From NCBI GenBank assembly GCA_019307135.1, contig JAFDKF010000001.1:6104-70103 (forward strand): a stretch of 64,000 nt of DNA, written 5' to 3'. Of this stretch, positions 1-16,262 are shown piece after piece. The number at the start of each line of letters is the position of its first letter. Position 1 is the first letter of the stretch. Source of the stretch: Deltaproteobacteria bacterium (GTDB lineage Bacteria; Desulfobacterota; Desulfobacteria; Desulfobacterales; C00003060). Below the pieces are notes generated by a model. That model was given only the letters and a program-made list of their open reading frames with translations. It was not told the origin of the DNA and searched no databases. The position numbers were made by a program, and so were the translations under genes.

Positions 1-166
1 AGTAACAAGATGGATCTTTTTGGACATAATAACCCCGGAACATTTATCATTGGCCATGTGTAATTGGACCGTCATTATTTTGAAACGCGTGGTGTAAAGA
101 TGCTTTTAGTAATGATAGCAACAAGTTATTTGTGTTGGTATCTATCTCCCAAATTCTACGAATGAG

Positions 167-225: not shown

Positions 226-265
226 CCGGGTTCTACATGACAGATGACCAATGACAAATGATAAA

Positions 266-1546
266 TTAATACCCCTTATGGCACTGAATACACAACTCCT
301 TTTTCCGATCAAATCTCAACGAAAAGTCGTGACGGCTTCCCATCAGGTTGTGGCATGTGATACACGTAATCTCCGCTTTGGATCTCGGATCAATAGCGCC
401 TTTTCCTATAGGATGGGTGAAAGAAGCATGTCTTTTGTGGCAATCATCACTAGTACAGGTAGTGATTTCATCCGCGCCGAAAAATAGCCTGAAGTTCGAG
501 CCGTGGGGACGATGACAGTCGCCGCATTTTCCTTCTTTAACCGACGGGTGTTTGTGCTTATACTTTTTGTCTCTTAAAAGGTCTGCTGTATCCTCATGAC
601 AGGTGGCGCATGTTTTTGCCTCTTTTGCCTTTATCATGTGGGCTTCGTCTGAGCTATGCGGGCTATGGCAATTTGTGCAAAAAACGCCTGGCCCCACATG
701 GGTGTTGACCTTTCTGAAGTCCTCCTTAATCGACTGGTGGCAGGCAGTACAGACCGACATCCCTTCGGCTTTCACGCCCAAGGGATCTCTTGACTGGGCC
801 GAATTATGACATTGAGTACATTTCTTCCGGGCAAATGGCTTATGCGAACTTTCCTTGATCAAATTCCTCTGGTTTGACGCGTGGGGATTATGGCAGGACG
901 TGCACTTCGCATCCTGGACAGGATAATAACTGTGCGATTTTTTCGCCTCTTTACTTCTAATTCTTTTTGAATGGCAAGAAACACATGCTTGTGTAACGTT
1001 CCTCTTCAGCATGGCTTCATGATCAGACGTGTGGGGGCTGTGGCAGGTCAAGCAGTCACCTTTCTTCACGGGCTTATGCTTGTGTTTCTTTGAAATGATC
1101 TCTTTCCTGGCGTGGCAGCTAAAACAGAGTTCCCCCCTTTCGGCGATTAATAGTTTCCGGTTCTTAGATGAATGAGCGTTGTGGCATTTCAGACACGCCC
1201 CTTCCTCAAATGGGGAGTGACCGTACTTTTTGTCAAAAGCCCCCTTCTTGCCTTTGTGACAGCTTTTGCACAGTTTGCCAATATGCTCTTTGACCAGGTG
1301 TTGGTAATTTGAGGTGTGAGGATTGTGGCAGGTTGAACATTCAAGTTTCTTAAAAGGCGCATGGGCACCCCTGGAGGCGATTTCCCGTTCTAAATCAGTA
1401 TGGCACTTCAGGCATTTTTTTAGGCTGACCCGCGTACTTTCGGCATATGTTTGATCCGCCGCCAGCAGAGCGCTTATGGAGACACAAATAAATATAAAAA
1501 AGGCCCAATAAATCTTTTTCGAAATCACAACTATAGTCTTTTGCAT
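266..1546 (-). CDS. Multiheme c-type cytochrome, 16 heme-binding motifs, secreted
   Basis: ORF-track ORF 266..1579. I place the start at ATG 1546 (MQKTIVVISKKIYWAFFIFICVSISALLAA, a signal-peptide-like N-terminus), which removes the overlap with the upstream gene. I counted 15 CxxCH motifs plus one CxxxxCH (CTSDDCH) in the translation. Confidence 0.9.
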   Translation of the reverse strand: MQKTIVVISKKIYWAFFIFICVSISALLAADQTYAESTRVSLKKCLKCHTDLEREIASRGAHAPFKKLECSTCHNPHTSNYQHLVKEHIGKLCKSCHKGKKGAFDKKYGHSPFEEGACLKCHNAHSSKNRKLLIAERGELCFSCHARKEIISKKHKHKPVKKGDCLTCHSPHTSDHEAMLKRNVTQACVSCHSKRIRSKEAKKSHSYYPVQDAKCTSCHNPHASNQRNLIKESSHKPFARKKCTQCHNSAQSRDPLGVKAEGMSVCTACHQSIKEDFRKVNTHVGPGVFCTNCHSPHSSDEAHMIKAKEAKTCATCHEDTADLLRDKKYKHKHPSVKEGKCGDCHRPHGSNFRLFFGADEITTCTSDDCHKRHASFTHPIGKGAIDPRSKAEITCITCHNLMGSRHDFSLRFDRKKELCIQCHKGY

Positions 1547-1575
1547 CTTATATCCAAATGACCACCAATGACCGA

Positions 1576-3525
1576 TCACTCATGACACGCTGTGCAGTCC
1601 CCGTCGGCAAACGGGCGATGCAAGATCTTGTGCAACAAGCCCTTGTTTTCCGAGGTGTGTGATTCATGACAACCGATACAATCAGAGTCCGATATCGTGA
1701 TTCTACTGTGGGAATTCGCCATAGCTGAAGCTTCGAGATTGTGACAAGTTTCGCACAACCTGGCCCTTTCAGCCGTAAGCAGCCCTTGGATATTTGTATA
1801 GTGGGGCCCATGGCATTTCAGACAGGCCCCTTCCTTTGCAGGACTATGCTTATGTTTATCTTTTTCAATATGAACCCTTAGGTCTGTATGACAGGACAGG
1901 CAAAGGCCCCCCAGGGGTCGGTTCAATTGCCCCTTTATCCTGCTCCCATGGGGATTATGACAGACAGTGCATTCTCCTTGTTCAAGCGGGGCGTGGTTGT
2001 ATTTATTCGTTTTAGAAGCGGCTTGAATCCTGGCATGACACCGGTAACAATTCTCTTCTCCCCTTTCGATCAGTTGAAAGTCATTGTCACTGGCGTGTTC
2101 GTTGTGGCATCTTAGGCACTCACCTTTTGCAAAAGAGGGATGGATAGTTCCACCCTTGACCTCATCCAGCATCCCTTGATGGCAGTTAAAGCAGAGTTTC
2201 TTTTTTGCTTGAATCAACCGTTTCCCCCTGTCATTCGAATGGGGACTGTGGCAAACGACACACCTTCCGATCCTTATTGGGGTGTGGACATTTACCCGAT
2301 CAAAGAGCATTCGCTCCTTCTGGTGGCAGGTGTAACACTGCTCGATTTCAACCAGCTGAAGTTCAAATTTGTTGTCCGATGCATGGGGGTTATGGCAGAC
2401 AACACAGTTTCCTTTCTTAATAGGCTCGTGAATATTTGAACGGGTAAAATCATCTTTCCTGTGACACCTGAAGCATAACGTTTTGCCAGAGTCTTTCAGT
2501 TCATATTCGTTCTTTGATGCATGGGGATTATGGCAGGCAGTACAATTGTTCTCTATTATCGGCTTGTGCACATGCCTCTTCTTGAACGATTCCTCTGTCT
2601 CTTTATGGCACGAATAGCAGAGCTTTCCATCAGGCAGAAGGGTTACATATTTGTTGTCCGTGGCATGGGGGCTGTGGCATGACAGGCAGTTGCCTTCTTT
2701 GACGGGGGCATGGACATGGGCCTTTGTAAAAGCCGTCTGGTTTTCCGTGTGGCACCCGTAGCAGAGCTTTGCCCCTTTTTCTTCAACCTTCAAGGGCTCG
2801 GCTGATCCCGGATGGTGGTGGCAGGCGCTGCACTCGTTTTTGTCAAGCGGCATATGAATGAATTCGTGCAGCAATTTGGGATTGGAAGATGAATGTGACG
2901 TATGACACGATACGCAGCGGCTCTCTCCGACCTTATAGCCCGCGTGGCCTGTGATAAACGTAGATTTCTGAAAATCATGACACTTTGCGCATACATTGTT
3001 TTTTGTGTCAAACAGGCATTGCTCATAATCAGAGGCATGGGCATCATGGCAAACCAAACATCCCTTCGTAGACAAAGGGGCATGTGCCTTTTTTCTGGTA
3101 TAAACATCCTCTTTATGGCAGATAAAACACAGCTCATCCCCCTTTCCTTTTAGCAGGTCTTTGTTCATGGATGAATGGGGATTGTGGCAGTTGACACATT
3201 TTTCCTCTTTTACCGGTCCATGGACATGCTTTTTGTCAAGCATGGCTTTGCTATCCTTGTGACAGGTATAGCAAAGCTCCTTTTCGCTGACCCTTAAATA
3301 CACACCGCCGATCACCCCGTGAGGCCTGTGACACGATTCACACCCATCCTTGGCAACAGGGGAATGCACGACCTTTGCCGCTTTAAATTGTTTGGCCTCT
3401 TCCTGGTGACAGTCAATACACTTCTTTTTGACAAGCCGTCCGATCTTTTTCTGACAGGAAGTGGTGCCGATGAGCATGATGCCGACAAGCAACACGAAAT
3501 AACATAGCGGTTTTATTGGTCTCAT
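1576..3525 (-). CDS. Multiheme c-type cytochrome, 26 CxxCH motifs arranged as 13 tandem di-heme modules; possible lipoprotein
   Basis: ORF-track ORF 1576..3618. The likely start is ATG 3525 (MRPIKPLCYFVLLVGIMLIGTTSC; hydrophobic N-terminus, weak lipobox TTSC). I counted 26 CxxCH motifs. The recurring unit is LCxxCH..(about 15 aa)..HxP(V/I)xxGxCxxCHxPHxS. Confidence 0.9.
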   Translation of the reverse strand: MRPIKPLCYFVLLVGIMLIGTTSCQKKIGRLVKKKCIDCHQEEAKQFKAAKVVHSPVAKDGCESCHRPHGVIGGVYLRVSEKELCYTCHKDSKAMLDKKHVHGPVKEEKCVNCHNPHSSMNKDLLKGKGDELCFICHKEDVYTRKKAHAPLSTKGCLVCHDAHASDYEQCLFDTKNNVCAKCHDFQKSTFITGHAGYKVGESRCVSCHTSHSSSNPKLLHEFIHMPLDKNECSACHHHPGSAEPLKVEEKGAKLCYGCHTENQTAFTKAHVHAPVKEGNCLSCHSPHATDNKYVTLLPDGKLCYSCHKETEESFKKRHVHKPIIENNCTACHNPHASKNEYELKDSGKTLCFRCHRKDDFTRSNIHEPIKKGNCVVCHNPHASDNKFELQLVEIEQCYTCHQKERMLFDRVNVHTPIRIGRCVVCHSPHSNDRGKRLIQAKKKLCFNCHQGMLDEVKGGTIHPSFAKGECLRCHNEHASDNDFQLIERGEENCYRCHARIQAASKTNKYNHAPLEQGECTVCHNPHGSRIKGQLNRPLGGLCLSCHTDLRVHIEKDKHKHSPAKEGACLKCHGPHYTNIQGLLTAERARLCETCHNLEASAMANSHSRITISDSDCIGCHESHTSENKGLLHKILHRPFADGDCTACHE

Positions 3526-3592
3526 ATTTTGATTTGCAGCAGTGTGGCGGGAAATGCCCGCCGTACATTTGTTTAGTCGAGTGGAAAAATGG

Positions 3593-5011
3593 TCAATCGG
3601 TCCTGTACTTTTCTTCAATCCTTTTCAGGGCCTTTTTATTGATCTTTATGTTGGATTCTTTACGCAATTTTGCCAAATAATCGGAAAGCACGATGTTGAA
3701 TTTTTGCTGTCCGACAATTCCCTTTAATCTCCGGGCCACGCGGGAAAATTCCTCAGGCTTCCCCCCTCTTTTTCCCTTCAGTTTTATGATCTTGTATAGC
3801 CTGCCATCCGCAAAGACATCGCTTATCTGCCCGACCTCCAGCCGATTTAGCTCGTTTCTAATTCCAAGAGGAAACCCATCAGCGCTAACCCATACGCGCG
3901 CGCCCTTTGGTGTCCACCTTTCTGACACCTGGGCAGCCAGGTATTCAAAGTTGGCTCCCTCCTTTAATTCCTTCAGGGCCTTCTCAGCATCTTCCCGAGC
4001 CTGAAAGGTCATCTCTCTAAACCATACCTCATAACCCTTTCTGAAGTCGTCTATATTTTCTTCATAGTACTTTGTCAACTCTTTTTTTGCTGGAATGGCA
4101 AGGGGATAGATAATTTTTTCCTTAAATTCGTTAATAAGCAGACCCTCTTTACGCCTTGTAATAATGTCCATGAATGCCGGGTCCTTCGTGTAATTGCGCC
4201 TTAATGCCTCCTGCTCGACCAGCTCATAAGTGATCAGCCCATCCAACGACTGTTGCTTTAGCTCTTCGCGCATCTTTTCTTGCTCGCTATTAGTCTTTAA
4301 CCTGCTAAACATCCTGGCCCTTTTTTGAAATGCCCGTTTCATGTCGTGCACCATGTCATCAAGCGGGATTGGCTGGCCATTGACTCGTGCCGCGACTGAC
4401 TTTTTACCAGCATAATCCTTTTCAGGGTCGAGCAAATCAAACAGTTCTTTGTCAATCTGGATATCCGCTTGTTTTCTTAACATTGCAACAAAGTTTTTAG
4501 ACAACTCTTTCTCTTTTTCCTTTTTCAGTTTTTTCGTGATTCGCCTTTTCCTTTTCTCGAATTCCCCCTCTGGGGCAGACCCGTCTTTCTCGTAATGTTT
4601 TTTGAAATAGTCAAGTAGATCTTCCTCACCTATATCGATTTTGTCGAGCACCTCTTCTTTTCTCAATCTGATAACAGATTGATTTTTTATGGACGCCTGG
4701 AGCTTTTTTTCAAAATCAGGATGCCTGTCGAGTTCGACCCTGTACGCGTCCTGGATTATCAGAGCCTCGTCGATCATCTCTTCAAGAAGGTCCAATATCT
4801 TGATGCTGCCCGCCCCCCCTTCAGCTTGGATCAGGGGCTTATATCTGTGAATGGCCTTGATTCTGTCCTGAATCGCTGTTTCATCTATTGTTTCGCCATT
4901 TACTTCCGCAAGAACCATCGTGCGCTCAGAAGCACAATAAAGGGCATCATGATCTGCTGTGGCAAGCAAAAAGAATGCCATCAAGGCAAATACTGATAAT
5001 TTTCTCATCAT
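3593..5011 (-). CDS. Periplasmic SurA/PpiD-like chaperone with a degenerate parvulin-type PPIase domain
   Basis: Signal peptide MMRKLSVFALMAFFLLATA, a long helical and charged middle, and a C-terminal parvulin-like segment (GANFEYLAAQVSE...GQISDVF...YKIIKLKG). The family call is by eye only. Confidence 0.6.
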   Translation of the reverse strand: MMRKLSVFALMAFFLLATADHDALYCASERTMVLAEVNGETIDETAIQDRIKAIHRYKPLIQAEGGAGSIKILDLLEEMIDEALIIQDAYRVELDRHPDFEKKLQASIKNQSVIRLRKEEVLDKIDIGEEDLLDYFKKHYEKDGSAPEGEFEKRKRRITKKLKKEKEKELSKNFVAMLRKQADIQIDKELFDLLDPEKDYAGKKSVAARVNGQPIPLDDMVHDMKRAFQKRARMFSRLKTNSEQEKMREELKQQSLDGLITYELVEQEALRRNYTKDPAFMDIITRRKEGLLINEFKEKIIYPLAIPAKKELTKYYEENIDDFRKGYEVWFREMTFQAREDAEKALKELKEGANFEYLAAQVSERWTPKGARVWVSADGFPLGIRNELNRLEVGQISDVFADGRLYKIIKLKGKRGGKPEEFSRVARRLKGIVGQQKFNIVLSDYLAKLRKESNIKINKKALKRIEEKYRTD

Positions 5012-5208: not shown

Positions 5209-5802
5209 TCACGGCATAGTCTCGATCATTTCGCCGACAACCTTTTGGGTCAATGCTGCTACCGACCTTACCTTCCCAAAATCGAGAACTTTTATGTAAT
5301 CATCACCCGTTCTCCTGTGGTGGGCCATCCACAAGATCTTGCCGTTCCTGCCATCCACCATCCTGGATCTGATGGAAACCAACGGAACGACAGCTTTTTT
5401 TCTGTCATCCACACCTATGTATTCGTCTACCTCCCCCAAGACAACGGCATCTACCTCCAGTCTTTTGGCCATCAGTTTTATGGTTTGAAGATTGACGCCT
5501 GTCCTTACAACAATTCGCTCATTGACAAGAAAGGCTCTTACATTACCCGGAAATTCCACCTTGAACTCTCTCCTTTCAAACAGCCCCGCAATAAACGCCT
5601 CGGTGACAATGCTGCTCGCTTCACCCACCTGGGTGTTGTTGTGGAAAGAGAAAACCGCCACTTTCTTGATCTTTGATTTGTCAATACCGGTCCTTTGGTA
5701 ACTATCTGGGCCGGAAAGGGAGTAACATCCGGGGCAGGCAACTAAGAAGAGGCTGATTAGTGAGGAAAAAAAGCTGACCTTGCATAAGAATCGAAGCCTC
5801 AT
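5209..5802 (-). CDS. Lipoprotein with a CsgG/LpoB/DUF799-like alpha/beta domain (paralog 1 of 3)
   Basis: Lipobox LFLVAC. The motif IKKVAVFSFHNNT aligns with IKTVAIVPFENLT (7345..7902) and IKKIAVMPFGSL (5804..7324). The later segments LEVDAVVLGEVDEY and ILWMAHH are also shared. Confidence 0.65.
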   Translation of the reverse strand: MRLRFLCKVSFFSSLISLFLVACPGCYSLSGPDSYQRTGIDKSKIKKVAVFSFHNNTQVGEASSIVTEAFIAGLFERREFKVEFPGNVRAFLVNERIVVRTGVNLQTIKLMAKRLEVDAVVLGEVDEYIGVDDRKKAVVPLVSIRSRMVDGRNGKILWMAHHRRTGDDYIKVLDFGKVRSVAALTQKVVGEMIETMP

Positions 5803-5803
5803 A

Positions 5804-7324
5804 TCAAAAATCCTCGATCCACACCTCTTTTTTCTCAGACGGTTCTCCCTCGGATACCTCTGGTTCAGGTGGTTTTAGAAGTTCTTTTTCTCTTTCTAAC
5901 CTGTTTCCTGCAACGTCGCTAACTTCGAGTGAATAGGCCAAAAAGCCCTCTTTTTCCGGGTTTGGGCCTTCCTGAGCACGCTTTAACGCGCAACTTAGCT
6001 CGGTCGGCATGTCTCCTTTGCCATCAAATTTGCCCGTCTCATTGCCCTTTCTATCATAGATGATTAAGTCCCAGTCCCCTATTCTGCTATTATCTGTCGT
6101 TTTCAGCTCCAAAGTTATGCCCTTATCATCTTCGGCGGCAAGCACCAGATTTACTTCGGGCGGTGTCGTGTCAACCACTATGGTCTCTCTAGGTGAAACC
6201 GATCTGTTGCCAGCCTTATCTTCCAATATCAACTGGCAGAAATAAGTCCCATCTTTAACCCGCTTAAACCTATTATCCTTGCCCCGCCACATAAACCCCC
6301 CGGGCAACCGTCCAGTGCCCTCTTCCGATCTCACAATCGTTCCGGCTACATCGGCAATCTCAACCCTCCAGCCCTCGAGGACATCTGCCTTCAGGAGTTC
6401 CGGGAAAAACAGGATGTTATCCATTATACCATCATTATTGGGCGATATAAGCCTTTGCCCGAATGAAACGGAAACCTCGGGCGGGGTGTTGTCAACTCTT
6501 AGTTGAGCCAAATCATCCATCCTGAAAAGCCTGTTCCCCTGGTCAGTGGCGTATACCCTGAGGGAATATACGCCTTCGATACTCGGGGCAATGAAGGTTC
6601 CGGTGTACCATCGTGCGTCCTCGGTTTTAAGCTCGACCTCGGTGTCAAGGACAAATGCCTTAATGTCCGCGAGCCTTCCTATAATCTCCCTTACCTCAAT
6701 TGACACGTTGGTCCTCTGGCCACCTTTTAACACTTTGGGGAAGAAACTCGCTTGCGCAATCTCAAATGGTCTTGCCTGCTCATCGTGTACACCGGCCTCG
6801 GCGGGTAAGCCTTTCAGGAGATCGGTTACGGCAACTTCTACCAGCTTCTGGAGGGAATTTATCTTACCTATGCCAAGAAAGGTGGCAAAGTCCGCCCCGG
6901 TGTATGAGACGGAGTTTGCCCAGACAACAGCAGAATCAACACAATCTATCATCTGGGCGCTCACGGCGACCCGGGGATTTTCACCACCGGCAAGCATCCC
7001 CACAGAGCCGGTCATCAAGGCATCTGCGCCTAAGGCCGTACCCATTTCCCTGATAGTTGGCCGGTCTAAGAAGTCTGTCCTGCGGACTCTTTTTTCGACC
7101 AGGAACCCTTCCAATACATCCTGAGGGATGACGATGAATTTGTCGTTTATGAGACGATTTGTGATCAGATGGGTAAAATCAAACGATAGGTCATCAACCA
7201 TGAGGCTTCCAAAGGGCATGACCGCAATCTTCTTTATTTTGATTCCCGTTTTCGCCCCAAAGATCTCGCCTGATGAGCCGAGCAGGAAGATTAGAAAAAC
7301 CAGAATGAATAAACGCCTTTTCAC
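5804..7324 (-). CDS. Secreted protein: N-terminal CsgG/LpoB-like domain (paralog 2 of 3) followed by FlgD-Ig/SPNxDG-type Ig-like domains and an acidic tail
   Basis: Signal peptide MKRRLFILVFLIFLLGSSGEIFG. N-terminal domain shared with the two flanking lipoproteins. ISPNNDGIMDNILFF lies between VDNTPPEV and VDTTPPEV boundaries, as in FlgD-Ig-like domains. The stop is 1 nt from the next gene's start. Confidence 0.6.
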   Translation of the reverse strand: MKRRLFILVFLIFLLGSSGEIFGAKTGIKIKKIAVMPFGSLMVDDLSFDFTHLITNRLINDKFIVIPQDVLEGFLVEKRVRRTDFLDRPTIREMGTALGADALMTGSVGMLAGGENPRVAVSAQMIDCVDSAVVWANSVSYTGADFATFLGIGKINSLQKLVEVAVTDLLKGLPAEAGVHDEQARPFEIAQASFFPKVLKGGQRTNVSIEVREIIGRLADIKAFVLDTEVELKTEDARWYTGTFIAPSIEGVYSLRVYATDQGNRLFRMDDLAQLRVDNTPPEVSVSFGQRLISPNNDGIMDNILFFPELLKADVLEGWRVEIADVAGTIVRSEEGTGRLPGGFMWRGKDNRFKRVKDGTYFCQLILEDKAGNRSVSPRETIVVDTTPPEVNLVLAAEDDKGITLELKTTDNSRIGDWDLIIYDRKGNETGKFDGKGDMPTELSCALKRAQEGPNPEKEGFLAYSLEVSDVAGNRLEREKELLKPPEPEVSEGEPSEKKEVWIEDF

Positions 7325-7344: not shown

Positions 7345-7902
7345 CTATCCCCCAAACAGCGTGTCAAACATCTCGGCGACCAGCTCTTTTGCAAGATCGC
7401 TTGTGCTTTTCTTACTGATACCAAAGAGCCGGTCTAAGACCGTTGTCCCTTTTACACTGTGGGTCGCTTCCCATAGAATCTTATAAGATTTTGCATCTAT
7501 TAACTTTAGGGAGACAGAGACTTCCGGATACGAGCTTCCGCCTGTTCGTGAGACACCATACTCTTCAACCGAGCCCACGATGAAGGCCTGAACATTCAAG
7601 CGCTTTGCCCCCCTTTCTGCCACGCGCTTGCTGATTAAACCGTCGCCTTTGAAACCTTCCTCCCTCAGTACCTTGGCGACCTCTCCGAATTCAACAACGT
7701 CAAATATGCCCCGTCTTAAGACCTCTGCGGCCACAACATTCATCACCTTGCCTTCTGCCCCTTTCTCCTGGGTCAGATTTTCAAAAGGCACAATAGCCAC
7801 TGTCTTGATATATGTTAGGTCTGCTGTGGGGTGGATATAGCTGATAGGGCCACCACAGCCTGAAAAGAAGAGCAGGAAGAATATGCATAGCGCATAGCGC
7901 AT
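7345..7902 (-). CDS. Lipoprotein with a CsgG/LpoB/DUF799-like domain (paralog 3 of 3)
   Basis: ORF-track ORF 7345..7995. I place the start at ATG 7902 (MRYALCIFFLLFFSGCGG, lipobox FSGC). It is clearly alignable to 5209..5802 along its whole length. Confidence 0.65.
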   Translation of the reverse strand: MRYALCIFFLLFFSGCGGPISYIHPTADLTYIKTVAIVPFENLTQEKGAEGKVMNVVAAEVLRRGIFDVVEFGEVAKVLREEGFKGDGLISKRVAERGAKRLNVQAFIVGSVEEYGVSRTGGSSYPEVSVSLKLIDAKSYKILWEATHSVKGTTVLDRLFGISKKSTSDLAKELVAEMFDTLFGG

Positions 7903-7965
7903 GGGGTTAATAATTGGTTTCGTCTGCCCTCTGCTTCCTGCCTTATGCGCCATGCGCCATGCGCC
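7885..7965. repeat. Inverted heptamer arrays: (AGCGCAT)x2 facing (ATGCGCC)x3
   Basis: The left array (7889-7902) contains the ATG and first codons of the 7345..7902 lipoprotein gene. The right array (7945-7965) is its 6/7 complement. The two are about 42 nt apart, in the gap after the beta-barrel gene. Confidence 0.75.
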
Positions 7966-8006
7966 GTGTGCTTTGCGTGCGTTCAATTCGATCATTGCTT
8001 TACCAT

Positions 8007-10145
8007 CTAAAACCTTGCTGAAAGGTTTGCGGTTATGGTTTGTGTTTCGGTTTCCGTATCGGCTTCCTCCCGGCTCCAGTCATATCCGAACCTGAGCGTG
8101 AACACCTGGCTTAAGTTCCACGAGAGGTCAGAGGAATAGGTTTTCTTGATTGTATCATTCCTGTCTATGGCATAGTCCATACTGAGCTGTACCTTTTTGG
8201 TCAACAACCAGTTCAGATTATAGTCCTGACGAGAGGTTTCATCGCCAGACTCTTCGTCCCGGTCAACGCCATATGATCCCCTGAAATAGAAATCGTGTGA
8301 GGGCCGCCAGTAAAGCGTGACTTCGGCATTGGAAGTTCGGCCTGTCGTATCACCGCTCGGCGCTTCTGTCTTTGACCAGTTTATATTATACTCTATTTCA
8401 GTTGTCAAGACGCTGGTAAGCTCAAGACGTAGGTTCGAGTGAATAGATTTCGTGGTTGACTCGGAATCAGTTGATAGATTTTCAGTGCGGGTAATATCTC
8501 CGTCTATGTCCAGATCTGCCCCCTCACGGAGCTTGGCCGCTATGTGCAGCAGGGCAGATGAGGTCTTTGATTGTGTCTCAGATTCTTCTTTCAATACCCA
8601 GTGGTTCAGGGAAAGGTCGGTATCAAGTGTGGTTAGCGGGGATGAAACAAAGTACAGCCGATACGTATCGGTCGATCTACGCGTTGTCTCTTCCTCAGAA
8701 TCCTCAGAATCCTTTTCTTCATATTCCAACCGCTTTTGATAGTAGGGCCGGACCTCAAGGTATTTGTGCACCTGAAACCCTTTTTCTACAAGGCCGCTTA
8801 AGTATTGGCGCGACTGCTTGGTTGTGGTCGAGTCGCCCTCGTTCTCGTTCTTCCGCCTGTCCTGGTTGAGATCATAAGTAAAAGAGAGCCAGTCAAAGGG
8901 TCTAAGCCCAAGATTGGCCTGGATGGTTTGTGTGGTCGTCTCTTCTTCGGTTGTGGTATAAGGGGCGTAGGTCGTAACGCTGTATGCTTCGATCTTTCTG
9001 GCTTGCAGGGGCTGGGGATCGCTTGCAGTGTTCACCACCTTAAAGTACCGTGCCGATGTCTTGGTAAAGGAGATCTCAAACCGCTCTTGGATCGTGTCAT
9101 AATCGAAGCTGGCATCAGCGGTTATCGGTGTCCATGTGCTGTTATCAGTACTTGAATACACAGCCCACGTAAAGTTGTTCTCGTCAAACGCAGGGTCAGG
9201 CGTGCTCGTATAAAGATAGATCAGTTCAACCTCAGTATCAGGATGCAGCTCCACCCCTATGTTCTGATCGTTCACTCCGCCAATGTTTATGTTTGCTGTG
9301 CCATCTCTCAGGGTGTCGTCAATACCAAGAGCCCCTGTCCCCGGCATGGGGTCAGGAGCATACAGTCCGTGAAGGACGGTCTCTTTTTCGGGCTTGCTGA
9401 CCTCCTCCCCCCTTGCCTTTGTTTCCGTCTCCCTCTCATTTATCGAATAGCTTCCGGATGAGGTGATCTTGTTGCTCCAGAAAGATTTCCTGAAATCGAT
9501 TCGCCCATCAAGGGTATTGGTCTCCTGGGTGCTATCTGCAACATAATCGTCTGAAATTTCGTTCGTGTAGTCGCCAAAAAAGTTCAAAAATCTATAGGCA
9601 TAGTCAGCGCTCCCGGAAAACCTCTTTGTCTCGGTGTTTGTCTCGTGAACTGGCAGGTGGTCATAATTCTTGTCTTGATCGTAGCGGAGCCGGAGCTTGG
9701 GATATTTTTCGAGTCTTGTGTATAAATTGTAATTCCAGGATTCGGTCGTGAACCGTTCTTCATCTGAGTCCGCGGTCAAGACGTCCAGGCCCTTTTCGTC
9801 TAAGCGATACCCGGCAGCGGCATCGAAATATTCGTTTGACACATTGAGCCTCATATCCGGATAGAGCCGTGTTTTCTTGTCGGTGGTTTTCTCGTCGTCT
9901 GTTTCAGTAACATCTTTAGTAACATTGACGCCAACATCAGCGTTAAAACTTACCTTTGATGTTATCTCTTTGGTAAGCCCGAGGTTGTACAACTGTGTAA
10001 GGCTCCAGGTGCTCGTCTTTTCATGATCCTTCTTTGTTTCGCTGGAGCGATAAGAAATGTCTGCCGAGGCGCGTATATCGTCTCCCGCGTAAGCCGCGCG
10101 GAAGCAAGCCAGGGTTAACAAGAAAACAGCAATCCAGCATCTCAT
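8007..10145 (-). CDS. Large outer-membrane beta-barrel protein with a central discoidin (F5/8 type C)-like domain
   Basis: Signal peptide MRCWIAVFLLTLACFRAAYA/GDD. Alternating Y/F/D/T/S-rich beta-strand composition throughout and a C-terminal ...ANLSARF (terminal Phe). The middle segment WAVYSSTDNSTWTPI...SARYFKVVNT resembles galactose-binding-like/discoidin domains. Confidence 0.7.
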   Translation of the reverse strand: MRCWIAVFLLTLACFRAAYAGDDIRASADISYRSSETKKDHEKTSTWSLTQLYNLGLTKEITSKVSFNADVGVNVTKDVTETDDEKTTDKKTRLYPDMRLNVSNEYFDAAAGYRLDEKGLDVLTADSDEERFTTESWNYNLYTRLEKYPKLRLRYDQDKNYDHLPVHETNTETKRFSGSADYAYRFLNFFGDYTNEISDDYVADSTQETNTLDGRIDFRKSFWSNKITSSGSYSINERETETKARGEEVSKPEKETVLHGLYAPDPMPGTGALGIDDTLRDGTANINIGGVNDQNIGVELHPDTEVELIYLYTSTPDPAFDENNFTWAVYSSTDNSTWTPITADASFDYDTIQERFEISFTKTSARYFKVVNTASDPQPLQARKIEAYSVTTYAPYTTTEEETTTQTIQANLGLRPFDWLSFTYDLNQDRRKNENEGDSTTTKQSRQYLSGLVEKGFQVHKYLEVRPYYQKRLEYEEKDSEDSEEETTRRSTDTYRLYFVSSPLTTLDTDLSLNHWVLKEESETQSKTSSALLHIAAKLREGADLDIDGDITRTENLSTDSESTTKSIHSNLRLELTSVLTTEIEYNINWSKTEAPSGDTTGRTSNAEVTLYWRPSHDFYFRGSYGVDRDEESGDETSRQDYNLNWLLTKKVQLSMDYAIDRNDTIKKTYSSDLSWNLSQVFTLRFGYDWSREEADTETETQTITANLSARF

Positions 10146-10718: not shown

Positions 10719-12149
10719 CTATTCTTCAATCAGGGCAATGCCGTGGGGGGTTTTTCCCACCTGAACCACTTTCTTCATGGTGTACGTTGGCAGGTCTATG
10801 ACAGACACGTCCTCAGACATCGAATTTATGACATAAAGTTTTCTTCTCAACTGGTCAATGGCCATCTCTGAAGGTAGGTCACCTGCCATCACATTTCTAT
10901 CCACCAAACCCATTCGTGGGTATACAAAAGAAATCTCGTTGCTGTTTGCATTGGACACGTAAATACGTTCTTGCAGGCCGGACAACATGCGGGTAGGCTT
11001 TTGCCCAACAGAAATCGTCTTTGTAGGCCTGTAGGGTGGTTGTAATGGGATCTCCATCACATAGATGTTGTTCGAAGCCGAATTGGCCACATACAGCCTA
11101 TCTTCGTGGATAAGCATTCCCGTGGGCTTCAGGCCAACAGTAACAGTCTTTTCCACAGATCGTTCGTAGTTATCTTCGTACATATCAATGACGGATATGG
11201 TATGCGATGCAGTGTTTGTCACATAGATCTTGCGCCTGTCTTGATCGACTACTATGCAGCAAGGGCGCTTGCCGACAGGTATCGTGCCGATGACCGTACG
11301 CGCAACAGTATCTATGACAGATACATTGTCCGAATCGGGGTTGGTTGCATAAAGCAAAAGGATTTGGCGAACTTCGGAGAGGGCAAGCTCAGCAGGGCTG
11401 TTACCAAAATTGCTGATTGTATTGATCACTCTGTTTATGGCCGTATCGATGACTGAAATTGTGTCTGAACCGGAATTGGCCACATAGACTCTGCGCCCAT
11501 CCGCCCTTGCCACAATTCCCACAGGTGCCCTGCCCACTGCAATACTTGCCACCACCATATCCTGTTCTCTGTCTATCACCGTAACGCAGTGAGAGTCGGT
11601 GTTTGTTACATAGATTAAGGTTTTCGTGATTTCCGCACCCTGTTTCCGAATAGTCAGCTCCGGCCTGAAGAGATATTTCTCGAAAACAGACTGCTCTGGA
11701 TCCCAGTCTGCAAATAGACACTGGCTTTCCCGGCCCAAAACAGAGAACTCGAAGTCCACAAAATGCTCTCCCCCGGGCTGGGGTACGGCTAAGGTAAAGC
11801 TTTTCTTGACCTTTTTCATCCTTGCCTCAGAAATAATCCACTTGACCCGTTTATACTTTCCGGCAGGCAGATAGAACTCGCGCAATTTGATCTGCCTTTC
11901 TGCAAGCTCAGCAGAATCAACGTGCTTATCCAGCGCCACATCGATCCACACTCCCTCCTTGTTCATAAAGCTCATGCCGGAGATAGAAAAGGAGATATCA
12001 AACGTAGGTTTCTTGGGACAGGAAAGATAAAAAAAGACCTGACCCTGGTCGGGAAACCGGGGGGCTTTCCGATCAGGCTCAAAAGCGCAGGAGATTATGC
12101 AGATTGGAGCCACCATTGCCGCGATGAAACGGATAATCATCTTTTGCAT
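10719..12149 (-). CDS. Lipoprotein with a seven-bladed YVTN-family beta-propeller
   Basis: I place the start at ATG 12149, preceded by AAGGTGG (ORF track 10719..12179). Lipobox IISC. Seven repeats of the type (I/L/V)YV(T/A/S/I)N....(V/I)SVID, e.g. IYVTNTDSHCVTVID, VYVANSGSDTISVID, IYVTNTASHTISVID. Confidence 0.85.
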   Translation of the reverse strand: MQKMIIRFIAAMVAPICIISCAFEPDRKAPRFPDQGQVFFYLSCPKKPTFDISFSISGMSFMNKEGVWIDVALDKHVDSAELAERQIKLREFYLPAGKYKRVKWIISEARMKKVKKSFTLAVPQPGGEHFVDFEFSVLGRESQCLFADWDPEQSVFEKYLFRPELTIRKQGAEITKTLIYVTNTDSHCVTVIDREQDMVVASIAVGRAPVGIVARADGRRVYVANSGSDTISVIDTAINRVINTISNFGNSPAELALSEVRQILLLYATNPDSDNVSVIDTVARTVIGTIPVGKRPCCIVVDQDRRKIYVTNTASHTISVIDMYEDNYERSVEKTVTVGLKPTGMLIHEDRLYVANSASNNIYVMEIPLQPPYRPTKTISVGQKPTRMLSGLQERIYVSNANSNEISFVYPRMGLVDRNVMAGDLPSEMAIDQLRRKLYVINSMSEDVSVIDLPTYTMKKVVQVGKTPHGIALIEE

Positions 12150-12207
12150 GATAACCACCTTCTTTAGGGTGTAAATCAAGATTGTTGGTTGTTGAGTTCA
12201 ATTGTAA

Positions 12208-12420: not shown

Positions 12421-13449
12421 TTACCGTATGTTCAACACCTGCACCCTATTGTTGAATGTATCTGCAACCAGAACGTTGCCCAGGGTGTCCACAGCTATAT
12501 CGGTAGGATACTGGAACCAGCCCCTTGCCCACCCCTTGCCGCCGAACTCGAACAAGAAGCGTCCGTCTTCCGACGAATAGGCACTCGCTGTGTGGCGCAT
12601 ATAGTCTATCACGTAAATCCTTTTGTTGCGGCTGTCCACGCCCATGCCACGGGGGCGGCTCAGTTTCCCGGAACCGCCTCCCTTTTGCCCAAACTTAAAG
12701 AGAAACTGCTCTTGGGGATCATACACATAGATGCGGCCCATGTCTTCGCTCAAAAGGTATATATGGCCCCGGTTGCCTATCTCCACGTCGCATATTGTAG
12801 CCTTTTCAACTGGCCCCTTGCCGAGTTTGTCAGTTGATGTCAAGAGATGGGAAAATCTTCCATCCTTATCCAAAACCACTGCCCCGCGATAGGCAGTGCC
12901 TGTCACGTAGAGATGACCTTTGTCGTTGATGGCAATATTGGTTGGGTTGAAATTGTCTGCACCTTCAAAACCGTCAAAGAAAATATCTTTCTTCCACCTT
13001 AGACAAGGATTCAAGACGGAAATCCTACCCTTTTTCTTTTTCCCGGTTGGCGATTGGGCAATAAACAGATATCCTTCAGGATCAACGGCCAGCCCCACAG
13101 GTACTTGAATCCCGTCCGATTTGCCAATAGAAAGAAGGGGATAGAAATCGTGGGTATAGACCAATATCCTGCTGTTCCCGGAATCGACCACATAGATCTC
13201 CTTCTTTACAGAATCAACGAACACCTTACAGGGGTACGACATAGGCACGCCTTCATAGCCCTCCCGGATAACCTGAAGACAAGTGATTTTCGAGGGCTCA
13301 AAGTCGTTCGTGCTGCGAACACCCTCCTGGGCGTGGAGTAAATGCATCCGCCCGGGTTGTGAGGTGATATCAAAAGGCACAGATAGTAAGGCGACAAGCC
13401 CTATGATGGGTAGGTATTGCCATTTTCGGGATTTGGGTCTTTCGGTCAT
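12421..13449 (-). CDS. Secreted NHL-repeat beta-propeller protein
   Basis: N-terminal hydrophobic segment YLPIIGLVALLSV. Repeats of the type IYVVDSGNSRILVY, IYVIDYMRHTASAY and VLVADTFNNRVQVL are typical of NHL blades. Confidence 0.8.
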   Translation of the reverse strand: MTERPKSRKWQYLPIIGLVALLSVPFDITSQPGRMHLLHAQEGVRSTNDFEPSKITCLQVIREGYEGVPMSYPCKVFVDSVKKEIYVVDSGNSRILVYTHDFYPLLSIGKSDGIQVPVGLAVDPEGYLFIAQSPTGKKKKGRISVLNPCLRWKKDIFFDGFEGADNFNPTNIAINDKGHLYVTGTAYRGAVVLDKDGRFSHLLTSTDKLGKGPVEKATICDVEIGNRGHIYLLSEDMGRIYVYDPQEQFLFKFGQKGGGSGKLSRPRGMGVDSRNKRIYVIDYMRHTASAYSSEDGRFLFEFGGKGWARGWFQYPTDIAVDTLGNVLVADTFNNRVQVLNIR

Positions 13450-14143: not shown

Positions 14144-14761
14144 ATGTTTACGTTAAACGTATCTGGCATAGGCAAGCATTATGGAGAAACACTGTTGTTC
14201 AAAAACATCTCCTTTCAGTTGAATCAAGGAGATGTGTTGGCTGTTGCCGGATGGAACGGATCGGGCAAGAGCACCCTGCTTCGGATTATTGCCGGTCTTG
14301 TAAAGCCATCGGCTGGTCAGGTTGAAATGTTTTTCAACAAGGAGCCCATACCAAGAGAATCGAGGCGGGGGTTTGTTGGTATGGTGGCGCCTGCCTTATC
14401 TCTGTATGACGAGTTGACGGGTCTTGAGAACATGGAGTTTTTCTGCAGGGTGAGAGGCGTCGCCTGCAATCGTAACGATTGTCTCGACATCATTGATCGT
14501 GTGCGGCTGACGGAACATGCAACAAAAATGTGCAGGGACTACTCTTCCGGGTTGAAGCAAAGGTTGAAACTGGCTCAGGCGTTGCTCCATAAACCACCGC
14601 TATTATTGTTAGACGAACCAGGGTGCAACCTTGACAGCCAGGGGATTAAGGTTGTGGAAGAGATTATTTCAAATCAGAGGCAATTAGGGATGACCGTTAT
14701 TGCATCAAACGAAAAACGGGAGGTGGGGTACGCAGGCAAGGTCGTCAACCTATCTGAATGA
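14144..14761 (+). CDS. ccmA: Heme exporter ATP-binding protein CcmA
   Basis: Walker A GWNGSGKST, ABC signature YSSGLKQRL, Walker B LLLLDEP. First gene of a ccm-ordered cluster. Confidence 0.85.
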   Translation: MFTLNVSGIGKHYGETLLFKNISFQLNQGDVLAVAGWNGSGKSTLLRIIAGLVKPSAGQVEMFFNKEPIPRESRRGFVGMVAPALSLYDELTGLENMEFFCRVRGVACNRNDCLDIIDRVRLTEHATKMCRDYSSGLKQRLKLAQALLHKPPLLLLDEPGCNLDSQGIKVVEEIISNQRQLGMTVIASNEKREVGYAGKVVNLSE

Positions 14762-15422
14762 GGCCGTCGCTATTTGGCTTCGTGATCTACGCAGCGAATT
14801 CAGGACCCGCTATGCCCTGAATGCCATCCTGATGTTTGCTGTGACCACCCTCATAGCTGTGAGCTTTTCCATTGGATCCTTCCGCATCGAAGAAGCTGAA
14901 AGGCCCTTTTTATTTTCAGTCCTGTTATGGATAATTTTGACCTTTTCCGCCTTATCCGGGCTTGCCCGCTCCTTTGTCAAGGAAGAAGAGGCCGGCACCA
15001 TAGACGTATTGAAGCTTTCTGCGCGCCCCCAGGCTGTATTCTTGGGAAAGCTATTTTTCAATTTGACCCTGTTGGGAGCTTTGGAGCTCATCATTGTGCC
15101 ATCGTTTGTTCTCTTGATGTCCTACCAGATAAACTCTCCGGGCTTTTTTATCGCCATAATCATCAGCGGCGGGCTTGGTTTGGGGGCGGGCACAACGATA
15201 ATCGCTGCAATGATAGCCAGGGCCAGTACCCGGGGAGCGTTGTTTTCTGCCCTGTCTCTGCCCTTGCTCTTGCCCCTCATGATTACCTGTATCAAGGGCT
15301 GCGAAAGGGCTGCCATTGGCATGAATAATGCGAGTTGGCCTGAGGTCAAAGTCGCTGTTGCCTATTTTATAATAATGATTACAATGTCGTTGCTGCTATT
15401 TCCTTTGGTATGGGAAGAATAA
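14700..15422 (+). CDS. ccmB: Heme exporter membrane protein CcmB (start uncertain)
   Basis: Polytopic membrane protein between ccmA and ccmC. The ORF-track start is TTG 14700, overlapping ccmA by 62 nt. No in-frame ATG occurs before NAILMFAV, so the true start is unresolved. Confidence 0.7.
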   Translation: MHQTKNGRWGTQARSSTYLNEAVAIWLRDLRSEFRTRYALNAILMFAVTTLIAVSFSIGSFRIEEAERPFLFSVLLWIILTFSALSGLARSFVKEEEAGTIDVLKLSARPQAVFLGKLFFNLTLLGALELIIVPSFVLLMSYQINSPGFFIAIIISGGLGLGAGTTIIAAMIARASTRGALFSALSLPLLLPLMITCIKGCERAAIGMNNASWPEVKVAVAYFIIMITMSLLLFPLVWEE

Positions 15423-15438
15423 AAGGATCAGGAGATTT

Positions 15439-16098
15439 ATGATCTGCAAAATCCTATTGACAATCTGGATGGCTGTTATCATTGTTGCTTCCTTTTTGTA
15501 CGCAGGAGCAGCCGCTGGCTTTCCAGGCGAGACGTCCCGCATTTTGTTTTTTCATGTGCCCCAGGCATGGATTGCAACGCTGGCTTTTTTGATATCGATG
15601 ATAGCAAGTGCTGTCTATCTGGCCAAACGCCGTGTGAAGGCAGACTATTTGGCTCAATCTGCCGCAGAACTGGGATTCCTATTCTGTGTTCTTGCCACGA
15701 TTACCGGTTCTGTATTCGCAAAGGCTACATGGGGGGCATTTTGGAATTGGGATCCCAGGCAGACCTCGATTGTAATACTGCTCATGATTTATGGGGCCTA
15801 TTTTGCTATCCGTTCGGCAGTCAGTGATCCTGACAGAAGACGGGTATTTGCGGGGGTATATTCGATCCTGGCTTTTGTCACAGTGCCATTTTTGGTCTTT
15901 GTTGTTCCACGGATAACAACATCACTCCATCCTGAGAACACGATGAACCCCGCCAGTCCTGGTATGGACCCGAAAACCTTGAAGGTGTTCTTAGGCTCAT
16001 TATTTGCGTACACCGGATTGTTCGTCTGGATGCTCTGGTTAAAGATAAGGGTATTAAGGATTGAGGGATTGAGGAATTTGGGAATTGAGGAATTGTGA
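15439..16098 (+). CDS. ccmC: Heme exporter protein CcmC
   Basis: Trp-rich WWD-type motif WGAFWNWDPRQT. RBS AGGAG upstream of ATG 15439. The C-terminal residues RIEGLRNLGIEEL are encoded by ATTGAGG-type short repeats. Confidence 0.85.
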   Translation: MICKILLTIWMAVIIVASFLYAGAAAGFPGETSRILFFHVPQAWIATLAFLISMIASAVYLAKRRVKADYLAQSAAELGFLFCVLATITGSVFAKATWGAFWNWDPRQTSIVILLMIYGAYFAIRSAVSDPDRRRVFAGVYSILAFVTVPFLVFVVPRITTSLHPENTMNPASPGMDPKTLKVFLGSLFAYTGLFVWMLWLKIRVLRIEGLRNLGIEEL

Positions 16099-16262
16099 AT
16101 CGGATGCCAGATGCCTGATAGTAGATGCGAGTCACCTGGTTCCAACACATCTGGCATCAGGGATCGGGTTTCAGCCAGACACGAAGTGAAGCTTGCGCTA
16201 AACGATTCGCAACTAACGGATAACAAATAACAAATAACGATTCACGAAATGGGGGCAGACGC

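What the first reader, a model, noticed from the sequence alone, without database searches (positions are those of the whole stretch)
1576..3525. 26-heme cytochrome built from 13 tandem di-heme modules
The 26 CxxCH motifs are not scattered. They alternate in a regular pattern of about 48-50 aa: LCxxCH, a spacer containing HxP(V/I), GxCxxCHxPHxS, repeated 13 times.

This looks like a repeat-expanded 'paired CxxCH' polymer, comparable in principle to the c7-domain polymer cytochromes of Geobacter. Such a chain could form an extended heme wire long enough to span a periplasm.

The N-terminus has a weak lipobox (IGTTSC). The downstream 16-heme protein uses similar modules but ends in a distinct CxxxxCH/THPIG region.
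Basis: seen in the sequence. Interest (0 to 1): 0.6.

Follow-up and report, generated by a model that had tools for sequence, protein, structure and literature searches.

The report
26-heme OetB-type lipoprotein cytochrome
This gene encodes a real 26-heme "molecular wire" cytochrome, but it is the already described 26-heme partner (OetB) of a 16-heme cytochrome in the electron-conduit operon of seep sulfate reducers; its heme number is ancient and fixed, and in other phyla the two proteins are fused into one 42-heme chain.

Summary
The ORF at window 1576-3525 (minus strand, 649 aa) carries 26 CxxCH motifs at 23-28 aa spacing. Pfam finds 13 Paired_CXXCH_1 units.

The pattern is not a perfect 13x repeat. 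Two junctions where B-type hemes are adjacent shift the register, giving 12 A-type and 14 B-type hemes.

The protein belongs to a published family: the 26-heme cytochrome of the operon that also encodes a PPIase, a 16-heme cytochrome and a beta-propeller (Skennerton 2017). Murali 2023 named it OetB, within the putative OetABI porin-cytochrome conduit. Orthologues at 52-91% identity, in full ten-gene synteny, occur in cold-seep Desulfobacterales MAGs, including named Seep-SRB1a and Seep-SRB1c genomes.

Its closest solved relative is MtrA, not the Geobacter c7 polymers.

Repeat number does not vary. All complete orthologues, and 45 of 120 distant homologues, have exactly 26 hemes. Recent expansion is therefore refuted.

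New here, to my knowledge: 50 distant homologues are colinear fusions of the 26-heme and 16-heme proteins into 42-heme proteins. Fusion or fission happened at least twice. This implies that heme 26 docks head-to-tail onto heme 1 of the 16-heme partner.

Whether the 26-heme part lies in the periplasm or outside the cell remains open.

The parts
1576..3525 (-). 26-heme c-type cytochrome lipoprotein (OetB-type), 649 aa including the signal peptide; the stop codon is at 1576-1578
   Evidence: 26 CxxCH motifs. PF09699 in 13 stretches, 442 bits. AF2 mean pLDDT 88.9. Orthologues at 52-91% identity.
3454..3525 (-). Signal peptide ending in the lipobox LIGTTS-C24; the Cys24 codon is at 3454-3456, 12 residues before heme 1
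   Evidence: Sequence read. The cysteine is conserved in 48/56 homologues.
2818..2916 (-). First B-to-B' junction (hemes 8-9, residues 204-236), where the di-heme register shifts
1582..1680 (-). Second B-to-B' junction (hemes 25-26, residues 616-648). The protein ends one residue after the last CxxCH, which is the proposed docking end for the 16-heme partner.
   Evidence: The same abrupt C-terminus occurs in the ~650-aa homologues. Colinearity with the fused proteins.
266..1546 (-). 16-heme cytochrome (OetA-type), 426 aa, with its own Sec signal peptide; 15 CxxCH motifs plus one CxxxxCH (437-457); distinct THPIG...DPR C-terminal region
   Evidence: It is a paralogue of the first 16 hemes of the 26-heme protein (33% identity, E 2e-56).
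3593..5011 (-). SurA/PpiC-type peptidyl-prolyl isomerase, 472 aa
   Evidence: PF13145, PF13624 and PF00639. Syntenic in all related loci.
5209..5802 (-). Small lipoprotein (197 aa), a paralogue of the 216-aa lipoprotein
   Evidence: Homologues lie next to the fused 42-heme gene in L027.
5804..7324 (-). 506-aa secreted protein with Ig-like / FlgD-Ig-like domains
   Evidence: Weak Pfam hits. Syntenic.
7345..7995 (-). LpoB/GNA1162-like lipoprotein (216-aa ORF)
   Evidence: PF05643 and PF13036. Syntenic.
8007..10145 (-). 712-aa outer-membrane beta-barrel protein, the presumed OetI-type porin
   Evidence: PF13505 hit. Syntenic at 40-76% identity in the related loci, including Seep-SRB1a genomes. 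Direct homology to the named OetI was not tested.
10719..12179 (-). YVTN-repeat beta-propeller protein, 486 aa
   Evidence: TIGR02276, 177 bits. Syntenic.
12421..13449 (-). NHL-repeat six-bladed beta-propeller, 342 aa
   Evidence: PF01436 and PF17170. Syntenic.
1..75 (-). Start of a second NHL six-bladed beta-propeller gene (316 aa). The rest lies upstream of the window at L001 5228-6178.
   Evidence: Syntenic after the 16-heme gene in all loci and after the fused 42-heme gene.
14144..19020 (+). ccmA/B/C...F cytochrome c maturation (System I) genes, lying beyond the conduit cluster on the opposite (+) strand
   Evidence: PF00005, PF03379, PF01578 and PF16327.

Best explanation
**Shown**
- The gene encodes the OetB-type 26-heme lipoprotein cytochrome c of the Oet gene cluster. 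That cluster holds a porin, small lipoproteins, a PPIase, the 26-heme and 16-heme cytochromes, and beta-propellers. Here it sits in a cold-seep Desulfobacterales genome related to Seep-SRB1.
- The protein is an MtrA/DmsE-like chain of paired-CxxCH modules with about 24 residues per heme.
- The heme number of 26 is fixed across phyla.

**Inferred**
- Each heme has its proximal histidine in a CxxCH motif and a distal histidine from one of 26 conserved non-motif histidines. This predicts an uninterrupted bis-His heme wire. By extrapolation from MtrA, it would be about 22 nm long.
- An N-terminal lipid anchor fixes heme 1 within about 12 residues of a membrane surface.
- The C-terminus stops directly after heme 26. 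That heme docks onto heme 1 of the downstream 16-heme protein. The basis is that in many other bacteria the two proteins are one colinear 42-heme polypeptide with normal in-chain spacing at the junction.
- The resulting 42-heme chain works with the 712-aa barrel as an outer-membrane (possibly trans-envelope) electron conduit. Its likely role is extracellular electron uptake or export.
- The PPIase probably helps fold the proline-rich HxP / CxxCHxPH modules.
For: **Heme chain**
- 26 CxxCH motifs and 13 Paired_CXXCH_1 units.
- MtrA (6r2q_A) is the only relative in the PDB, by sequence (E 8e-18; hemes 1-8 are colinear with the eight C-terminal CxxCH motifs of MtrA) and by fold (E 1e-7).
- All 26 motifs are invariant in 56 homologues, apart from heme 18, whose C445/C448/H449 are conserved in 90% or more. 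There are 26 conserved non-motif His and no conserved Met.
- The AF2 model has a mean pLDDT of 88.9.

**Family membership**
- Twenty orthologous loci in seep Desulfobacterales MAGs carry the same ten-gene order. They include Seep-SRB1a SM7059A and CR9063A and Seep-SRB1c S7086C20, which appear in the tables of PMC10553843.
- The published descriptions match: a core operon of a six-bladed propeller, 16-heme and 26-heme cytochromes and a PPIase (PMC5539420); OetA has 16 hemes and OetB has 26 hemes and is a lipoprotein (PMC10553843).
- The lipobox cysteine is conserved.

**Fusion with the 16-heme partner**
- 50 of 120 homologues have 42 CxxCH motifs.
- In the four fused proteins that were aligned, all 41 CxxCH columns of the concatenated 26-heme + 16-heme sequence line up with the fused sequence. 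Junction spacing is 22-24 aa in most of the seven fused proteins checked (27 in P0045).
- pLDDT is 82-90 across the junction in the model of a fused protein.
- The fused/split state changed at least twice on the tree.
- The fused gene sits in a related cluster with an NHL propeller and the same small lipoproteins.

**Length scale.** The ten hemes of MtrA span 80 A (PMC7198977).
Against: - No member of this family has been purified, localised or knocked out. The function rests on homology and gene context alone.
- The length estimate is an extrapolation, because model coordinates could not be read here. The chain might be curved.
- Docking of heme 26 onto heme 1 of the partner is inferred only from the gene fusions.
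- Homology of the barrel to the named OetI was not tested directly.
Confidence: 0.8

Rival explanations
1. **Periplasm-spanning topology.** The 16-heme protein sits in the barrel as MtrA does, with its N-terminus toward the periplasm. The 26-heme protein extends from there across the periplasm. Its N-terminal lipid anchor sits in the outer leaflet of the inner membrane. Together, 42 hemes (about 36 nm) would wire the inner-membrane oxidoreductases directly to the cell surface.
For: - In the fused proteins the 26-heme part is N-terminal to the 16-heme part.
- In the Mtr complex the N-terminus of MtrA is periplasmic and its C-terminus faces outward. The folded cytochrome enters the barrel from the periplasm (PMC7198977).
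- Fused proteins carry one ordinary Sec signal peptide and no lipobox. The bulk of the chain is therefore most simply left in the periplasm, where the Ccm system loads heme.
- 25 heme steps at about 8.9 A give about 22 nm, close to typical periplasm widths (my own knowledge).
- The tether from the lipid anchor to heme 1 is only 11-23 aa in all but one lipobox-bearing homologue.
Against: - The +2 residue after the lipobox cysteine is Q, E, K, V or A, never Asp. By the E. coli rule this predicts sorting to the outer membrane. The rules for Desulfobacterota are unknown.
- PMC10553843 assigns the 26-heme lipoprotein to the cell exterior, by analogy with OmcB, MtrC and ExtC/D.
- Orientation in the barrel is assumed from MtrA, not shown.
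Confidence: 0.35
2. **Extracellular topology (the published OetABI model).** The 26-heme lipoprotein is anchored on the outer face of the outer membrane as a surface wire of about 22 nm. It takes electrons from partner cells, minerals or OmcS/OmcX-like filaments and hands them to the 16-heme protein, which sits in the porin and faces the periplasm.
For: - PMC10553843 states this model.
- In the known porin-cytochrome systems the lipoprotein cytochrome is the external one.
- The +2 residue is not Asp.
- The genome encodes a GspD-type type II secretin, at 508 bits, above the curated cut-off.
Against: - In the fused 42-heme homologues the "external" part is N-terminal to the "periplasmic" part on one Sec-exported polypeptide. 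Either 26 heme-loaded modules must pass through the barrel, or the orientation must be opposite to that of MtrA.
- No localisation data exist.
Confidence: 0.35
3. **Periplasmic electron store.** The protein acts as a capacitor or a broad collector rod lying under the outer membrane, not as a directional wire joined to the porin. The operon neighbours serve its folding and handling only.
For: - PMC5539420 originally read all four core proteins as periplasmic and unattached.
- At 24 aa per heme the protein has a high charge capacity.
- In cultured carriers the homologues did not respond to metal-reducing or cathodic conditions (PMC5539420).
Against: - A large barrel is in conserved synteny across the seep loci.
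- Fusion with the 16-heme partner recurred.
- The chain has a conserved exposed C-terminal heme and a conserved N-terminal anchor. These point to a defined end-to-end geometry.
Confidence: 0.1

Closest known systems
OetB (earlier HmlB), the 26-heme cytochrome of the OetABI / "SEEP-SRB1 large cytochrome" operon (Skennerton et al. 2017, PMC5539420; Murali et al. 2023, PMC10553843)
   Same: - 26 heme motifs and a lipoprotein signal.
- The adjacent genes match: a 16-heme cytochrome, a PPIase, a six-bladed propeller and a porin-type barrel.
- Orthologues at 58-65% identity, in full synteny, occur in the Seep-SRB1a and Seep-SRB1c genomes used in those papers.
   Different: Nothing essential differs; this is another member. 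Three points added here are not in the papers read:
- The exact A/B heme order.
- The invariance of the count of 26.
- The colinear 42-heme fusions, which constrain how OetB meets OetA.
MtrA / DmsE / MtoA decaheme cytochromes (TIGR03508; PDB 6r2q chain A)
   Same: - The same paired-CxxCH module.
- Hemes 1-8 are colinear with the eight C-terminal CxxCH motifs of MtrA.
- MtrA is the only Foldseek hit in the PDB.
- The protein is associated with a large outer-membrane barrel.
   Different: - 26 hemes rather than 10.
- It is a lipoprotein.
- There are extra B' hemes at two junctions.
- It is partnered with a 16-heme paralogue.
- The TIGR03508 score (256 bits) is a sum over five stretches, not one decaheme match.
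   Same: Both are repeat-built, rod-like multiheme "nanowire" proteins.
   Different: - The unit here is a di-heme paired-CxxCH module, not a tri-heme c7 domain.
- No methionine is conserved that could give a His-Met heme.
- PF14522 scores 90 bits, against 442 bits for PF09699.
PCC3 porin-cytochrome clusters (He et al. 2017, PMC5566968)
   Same: - Very long, repeat-rich multiheme cytochromes next to a porin.
- The same idea that such a chain could bridge the two membranes.
   Different: - PCC3 clusters carry a conserved five-helix inner-membrane protein with two WX3HX13H motifs, and their cytochromes have medians of 21 and 34 hemes.
- No such inner-membrane protein turned up among the cluster genes here.
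- The PPIase and propellers found here are not named among PCC3's components.

Membership tests
OetB / 26-heme cytochrome of the Oet operon | 26 heme-binding motifs in a protein of about 650 aa | tested here: met
   26 CxxCH motifs in 649 aa. All are invariant in 56 homologues, apart from heme 18 (conserved in 90% or more).
OetB / 26-heme cytochrome of the Oet operon | Core operon with a 16-heme cytochrome, a peptidyl-prolyl isomerase and a six-bladed beta-propeller | tested here: met
   PPIase at 3593-5011. 16-heme gene at 266-1546. NHL six-bladed propeller at L001 5228-6178. The definition comes from PMC5539420.
OetB / 26-heme cytochrome of the Oet operon | Orthology and synteny with members in named Seep-SRB genomes | tested here: met
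   L012 (Seep-SRB1a SM7059A) 65%, L017 (Seep-SRB1a CR9063A) 58%, L018 (Seep-SRB1c S7086C20) 60% identity, with the same gene order.
OetB / 26-heme cytochrome of the Oet operon | Lipoprotein signal peptide | tested here: met
   LIGTTS-C24. The cysteine is conserved in 48/56 homologues. This is a sequence prediction only; lipidation was not shown.
OetB / 26-heme cytochrome of the Oet operon | OetI porin encoded in the cluster | tested here: inconclusive
   A 712-aa barrel (PF13505) is syntenic in the Seep-SRB1a loci. It was not compared directly with the reference OetI (OEU57520.1), which could not be fetched.
OetB / 26-heme cytochrome of the Oet operon | Extracellular location and a role in interspecies or extracellular electron transfer | not testable with these tools
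   This is only proposed in PMC10553843. The fusion order found here raises doubt about the location.
Pfam PF09699 / TIGR01905 doubled CXXCH domain | Match to the 41-residue profile above the curated cut-off | tested here: met
   442.5 bits against a cut-off of 20.6, in 13 stretches. 426 bits for TIGR01905.
MtrA/DmsE decaheme family (TIGR03508) | Ten hemes in a single protein of about 300 aa that matches the model end to end | tested here: not met
   26 hemes. The 256-bit score comes from five partial stretches, and the best covers model positions 70-256 only. The protein is a relative, not a member.
c7-type polymer cytochromes (GSU1996-like) | Tandem tri-heme c7 domains with one His-Met heme per domain | tested here: not met
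   Two-heme period. No conserved Met, and 26 conserved distal His.
PCC3 cluster | A conserved five-TM inner-membrane protein with two WX3HX13H motifs in the cluster | tested here: not met
   None of the genes from 266 to 13449, nor the flanking L001 genes, showed such a protein in the ORF listings and Pfam scans. The motif itself was not searched for.

The most novel reading that the evidence does not exclude
The 26-heme lipoprotein and the 16-heme protein form one continuous 42-heme, roughly 36-nm trans-envelope wire. The N-terminal lipid anchor of the 26-heme protein sits on the inner membrane. The chain crosses the periplasm. The 16-heme part threads the outer-membrane barrel with its distinct C-terminal THPxG...DPR region at the cell surface. 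Electrons would then cross the periplasm without soluble carriers. This reverses the published placement of OetB outside the cell.
Probability: 0.3. Interest if true: 0.75.

Novelty: already known. Interest (0 to 1): 0.33.

Why it matters
This family is the leading candidate for how the sulfate-reducing partners of methane-oxidising archaea take up electrons directly. That step controls methane release from the sea floor. No member has yet been characterised.

The finding itself adds only another member.
- The heme number is fixed at 26.
- The protein ends exactly at its last heme.
- The 26-heme and 16-heme proteins have repeatedly been fused into, or split from, one 42-heme polypeptide.

Tried and rejected
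**Hypotheses rejected**
- Recent repeat expansion. Tandem Repeats Finder finds no array in the gene. DNA copies of the unit are only 60-71% alike. The heme number is invariant in orthologues.
- The 26/16 split as a frameshift or assembly artefact of a fused gene. All 20 related loci have the same split. The 16-heme protein has its own signal peptide. The ~650-aa homologues in other lineages end at the same place.
- Membership of the c7 polymer family.
- Membership of PCC3.

**Checks that led nowhere**
- A literature search for 42-heme cytochromes found nothing relevant.
- A search for papers on periplasm-spanning heme-wire lipoproteins found one preprint, which I did not read.
- Leang et al. 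2005, cited for the Geobacter homologue, is not held. The Geobacter locus tags could therefore not be checked.
- A type II secretin is present in the genome, so this check does not discriminate between the two topologies.
- The promoter/terminator scan gave no more sites than the shuffled controls.
- The coordinates of the AF2 models are not readable here, so the end-to-end length and straightness of the chain could not be measured.
- Earlier notes of this scan retrieved by word search were about other conduit families and were not used.
Full report
**1. The observation**

The longest frame over the flagged interval lies on the minus strand, 1576..3618. Successive motifs are 23-28 residues apart.

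Pfam PF09699 (Paired_CXXCH_1, "doubled CXXCH motif") matches 13 times, for 442 bits in total. TIGR01905 does the same. In a genome-wide scan the individual units score E = 1.8e-15 to 3.6e-4. Eleven hits are essentially full length and two are partial.

The similarity is not only the heme motif. I masked the C, C and H of each motif and compared the 13 units pairwise. The mean local score is 33.4, against 17.2 +/- 3.4 for composition-preserving shuffles.

Two heme types alternate: A (LCxxCH) and B (HxP...GxCxxCHxPH). The alternation breaks twice, at hemes 8-9 and hemes 25-26. There a B heme is followed 28 residues later by a second B-like heme (B'). The two junction sequences resemble each other: NPKLLHEFIHMPLDKNECSACH and NKGLLHKILHRPFADGDCTACH.

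The heme order is A (BA)x3 B B' A (BA)x7 B B'. That gives 12 A-type and 14 B-type hemes, and the register slips by one heme after heme 8.

At the DNA level there is no tandem array. Unit copies are only 60-71% identical.

**2. What the protein is**

The only solved relative is MtrA of the Shewanella Mtr complex (6r2q_A). It is found by sequence at E 8e-18, with hemes 1-8 of this protein colinear with the eight C-terminal CxxCH motifs of MtrA. It is also found by fold, at Foldseek E 1e-7, with no other hit below 0.1. The AlphaFold2 model built on 56 homologues is confident, with a mean pLDDT of 88.9.

In that alignment all 26 motifs are invariant, apart from heme 18, whose C445/C448/H449 are conserved in 90% or more of the sequences. 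There are exactly 26 conserved non-motif histidines: 25 at 98% or more, and H511 at 84%. No methionine is conserved. I infer that all 26 hemes are bis-His ligated.

The mature protein has 24 residues per heme, which leaves little beyond a sheath around a heme chain.

The N-terminus reads MRPIKPLCYFVLLVGIMLIGTTS-C24. This cysteine is conserved in 48 of 56 homologues and lies 11-23 residues before heme 1 in all but one of them (60 in P0109).

**3. Context**

The gene sits in a run of co-oriented minus-strand genes, in this order:
- NHL propeller (12421-13449)
- YVTN propeller (10719-12179)
- 712-aa beta-barrel (8007-10145)
- LpoB-like lipoprotein (7345-7995)
- Ig-like protein (5804-7324)
- small lipoprotein (5209-5802)
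- SurA/PpiC-type PPIase (3593-5011)
- the 26-heme gene
- a 16-heme gene (266-1546)
- just beyond the window edge, a second NHL six-bladed propeller

A ccm cytochrome-maturation operon follows on the other strand (14144-19020).

The 16-heme protein has its own Sec signal peptide and the same modules. A heme-by-heme self-comparison, averaged over 21 orthologue pairs, has its strongest diagonal at offset 26. So the 16-heme protein is a paralogue of the first 16 hemes of the 26-heme protein (33% identity, E 2e-56).

Its CTSDDCH motif is a two-residue insertion specific to this lineage. Other orthologues have an ordinary CxxCH at that site.

**4. It is a described family**

Skennerton et al. [quoted passage not shown] They report homologues in Desulfuromonadales, Geobacter, Anaeromyxobacter, Ca. 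Desulfofervidus and Desulfurivibrio.

Murali et al. 2023 (PMC10553843) name the putative conduit OetABI. OetA is the periplasmic cytochrome with 16 hemes. OetB is the extracellular-facing lipoprotein cytochrome with 26 hemes. OetI is the porin.

A scan of one genome per species found 20 orthologous loci at 52-91% identity, all from marine-seep or sediment Desulfobacterales MAGs. They include Seep-SRB1a SM7059A, CR9063A and Meg22_02_Bin_90, and Seep-SRB1c S7086C20, which appear in Murali's tables. Wherever the contig is long enough, all ten genes are syntenic.

In an even sample of 61 genomes of the same order, only 3 carry a homologue. This agrees with the published view of a patchy, horizontally acquired cluster. 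Membership is therefore well supported, and the finding is not new as a kind.

**5.

Every complete orthologue has exactly 26 motifs in 644-666 aa, and each is followed by a 16-heme gene of 413-438 aa. Among 120 distant homologues at 22-37% identity, from many phyla, 45 have exactly 26 motifs and 50 have exactly 42.

Repeat number is fixed, not variable. The polymer is ancient and under strong constraint on length. "Recent expansion" is refuted.

**6. The 42-heme proteins**

The proteins of about 1065 aa come from Zixibacteria, Latescibacteria, Krumholzibacteria, Gemmatimonadota and "FCB group" sources. In the four that were aligned with the 26-heme protein followed by the mature 16-heme protein, all 41 CxxCH columns of the concatenation line up with CxxCH columns of the fused protein. 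The site that is CxxxxCH here is CxxCH there.

In the fused proteins the spacing between hemes 26 and 27 is 22-24 residues in most of the seven checked (27 in P0045), about the same as any in-chain step. They end with the same THxHPMG...DPR tail as the 16-heme protein.

A model of one fused protein has pLDDT 82-90 across the junction and no disordered linker. Its gene is followed by an NHL propeller, further cytochromes and two homologues of the small lipoproteins of this window. So it sits in the same kind of cluster.

On a tree of the 26-heme region, well-supported branches force at least two changes of the fused/split state; the most parsimonious count is four.

The split proteins of about 650 aa all stop within a few residues of their last CxxCH.

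My inference is that heme 26 of OetB packs directly against heme 1 of OetA, giving one 42-heme chain. I found no mention of this in the papers read, nor in a text search for 42-heme cytochromes.

**7. Mechanism and the open question of topology**

The ten hemes of MtrA span 80 A. Its N-terminus is periplasmic and its C-terminus faces outward, and it enters the barrel from the periplasm (PMC7198977).

Extrapolating at 8.9 A per heme step gives about 22 nm for 26 hemes and about 36 nm for 42. This assumes a straight chain, which I could not check because the model coordinates are not exposed.

Two topologies remain.
- **Published model.** The lipoprotein is outside the cell.
- **Alternative.** The fusion order (26-heme part N-terminal, 16-heme part C-terminal), taken together with the orientation of MtrA, more simply leaves the 26-heme part in the periplasm. 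Its lipid anchor would then be about 22 nm from the barrel, that is, at the inner membrane.

Against the alternative, the residue after the lipobox cysteine is never Asp. A type II secretin is present in the genome, so export is not excluded.

I rate the two topologies about equal, at 0.35 each. A non-directional electron store comes a distant third.

The PPIase plausibly assists the many conserved X-Pro bonds of the HxP and CxxCHxPH elements. That is inference only.

**8. Verdict**

The protein is real, correctly located and correctly read as a modular heme wire. However, it is a member of an already published family whose module is a Pfam domain, and the suggested recent expansion is wrong.

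The modest added value lies in three points: the exact heme order, the invariant count of 26, and the recurrent fusion into a 42-heme protein. Together these make the assembly and location of this conduit directly testable.

Noticed in passing
L027:10001-13207 (protein P0012) and about 50 other proteins: Single-polypeptide 42-heme cytochromes of about 1065 aa, from Zixibacteria, Latescibacteria, Krumholzibacteria, Gemmatimonadota and FCB-group sources. The four that were aligned are colinear with the 26-heme protein followed by the 16-heme protein of this window. The fused/split state changed at least twice on the tree.
   Followed up: yes
window 437-457 (-): The CxxxxCH motif (CTSDDCH) of the 16-heme protein is a two-residue insertion. 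It is shared only with the closest relatives (CTDADCH in L002 and L003). All other orthologues have an ordinary CxxCH at this site.
   Followed up: yes
window 237-266: (ATGACAA) x 4.3 heptamer tandem array abutting the stop codon of the 16-heme gene, in the 190-nt gap before the NHL propeller gene. Earlier notes of this scan report similar heptamer arrays elsewhere in this genome.
   Followed up: no
window 3542-3566: G+C-rich 10-bp hairpin in the 67-nt spacer between the PPIase gene and the 26-heme gene. It is terminator-like only on the non-coding (+) strand. It could be an mRNA-processing or stability element within the operon.
   Followed up: no
genome contig C194:5295-6452 (-): A 386-aa open frame with 19 CxxCH motifs, about 20 aa per heme, even denser than the 26-heme protein. 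The genome has 32 frames with at least 4 CxxCH motifs.
   Followed up: no
L024:9899-13695, L025:3164-6945, L026:9863-12483: Two Bacteroidota loci and one unclassified 'bacterium' MAG locus carry an unrelated-looking pair of overlapping genes. They encode a 20-heme protein and a 27-heme (or 13-heme) protein. The 20-heme protein has a conserved N-terminal SPGELS..H motif. The pair is only about 22-24% identical to the query.
   Followed up: no
protein alignment A1 and tree: Eight of the split 26-heme homologues lack the lipobox cysteine (P0083, P0084, P0087, P0088, P0092, P0097, P0106 and P0118). Seven of them form one clade that groups with the fused 42-heme proteins; P0118 is a long branch placed elsewhere. 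Lipidation therefore seems tied to the Desulfobacterota-type split lineage.
   Followed up: partly
G050:C9:7795-9702: The genome labelled as the same genus has an orthologue at only 53% identity. MAGs with other labels carry orthologues at 90-91% identity (L002, L003). This may reflect horizontal exchange of the cluster or uneven taxonomy.
   Followed up: no
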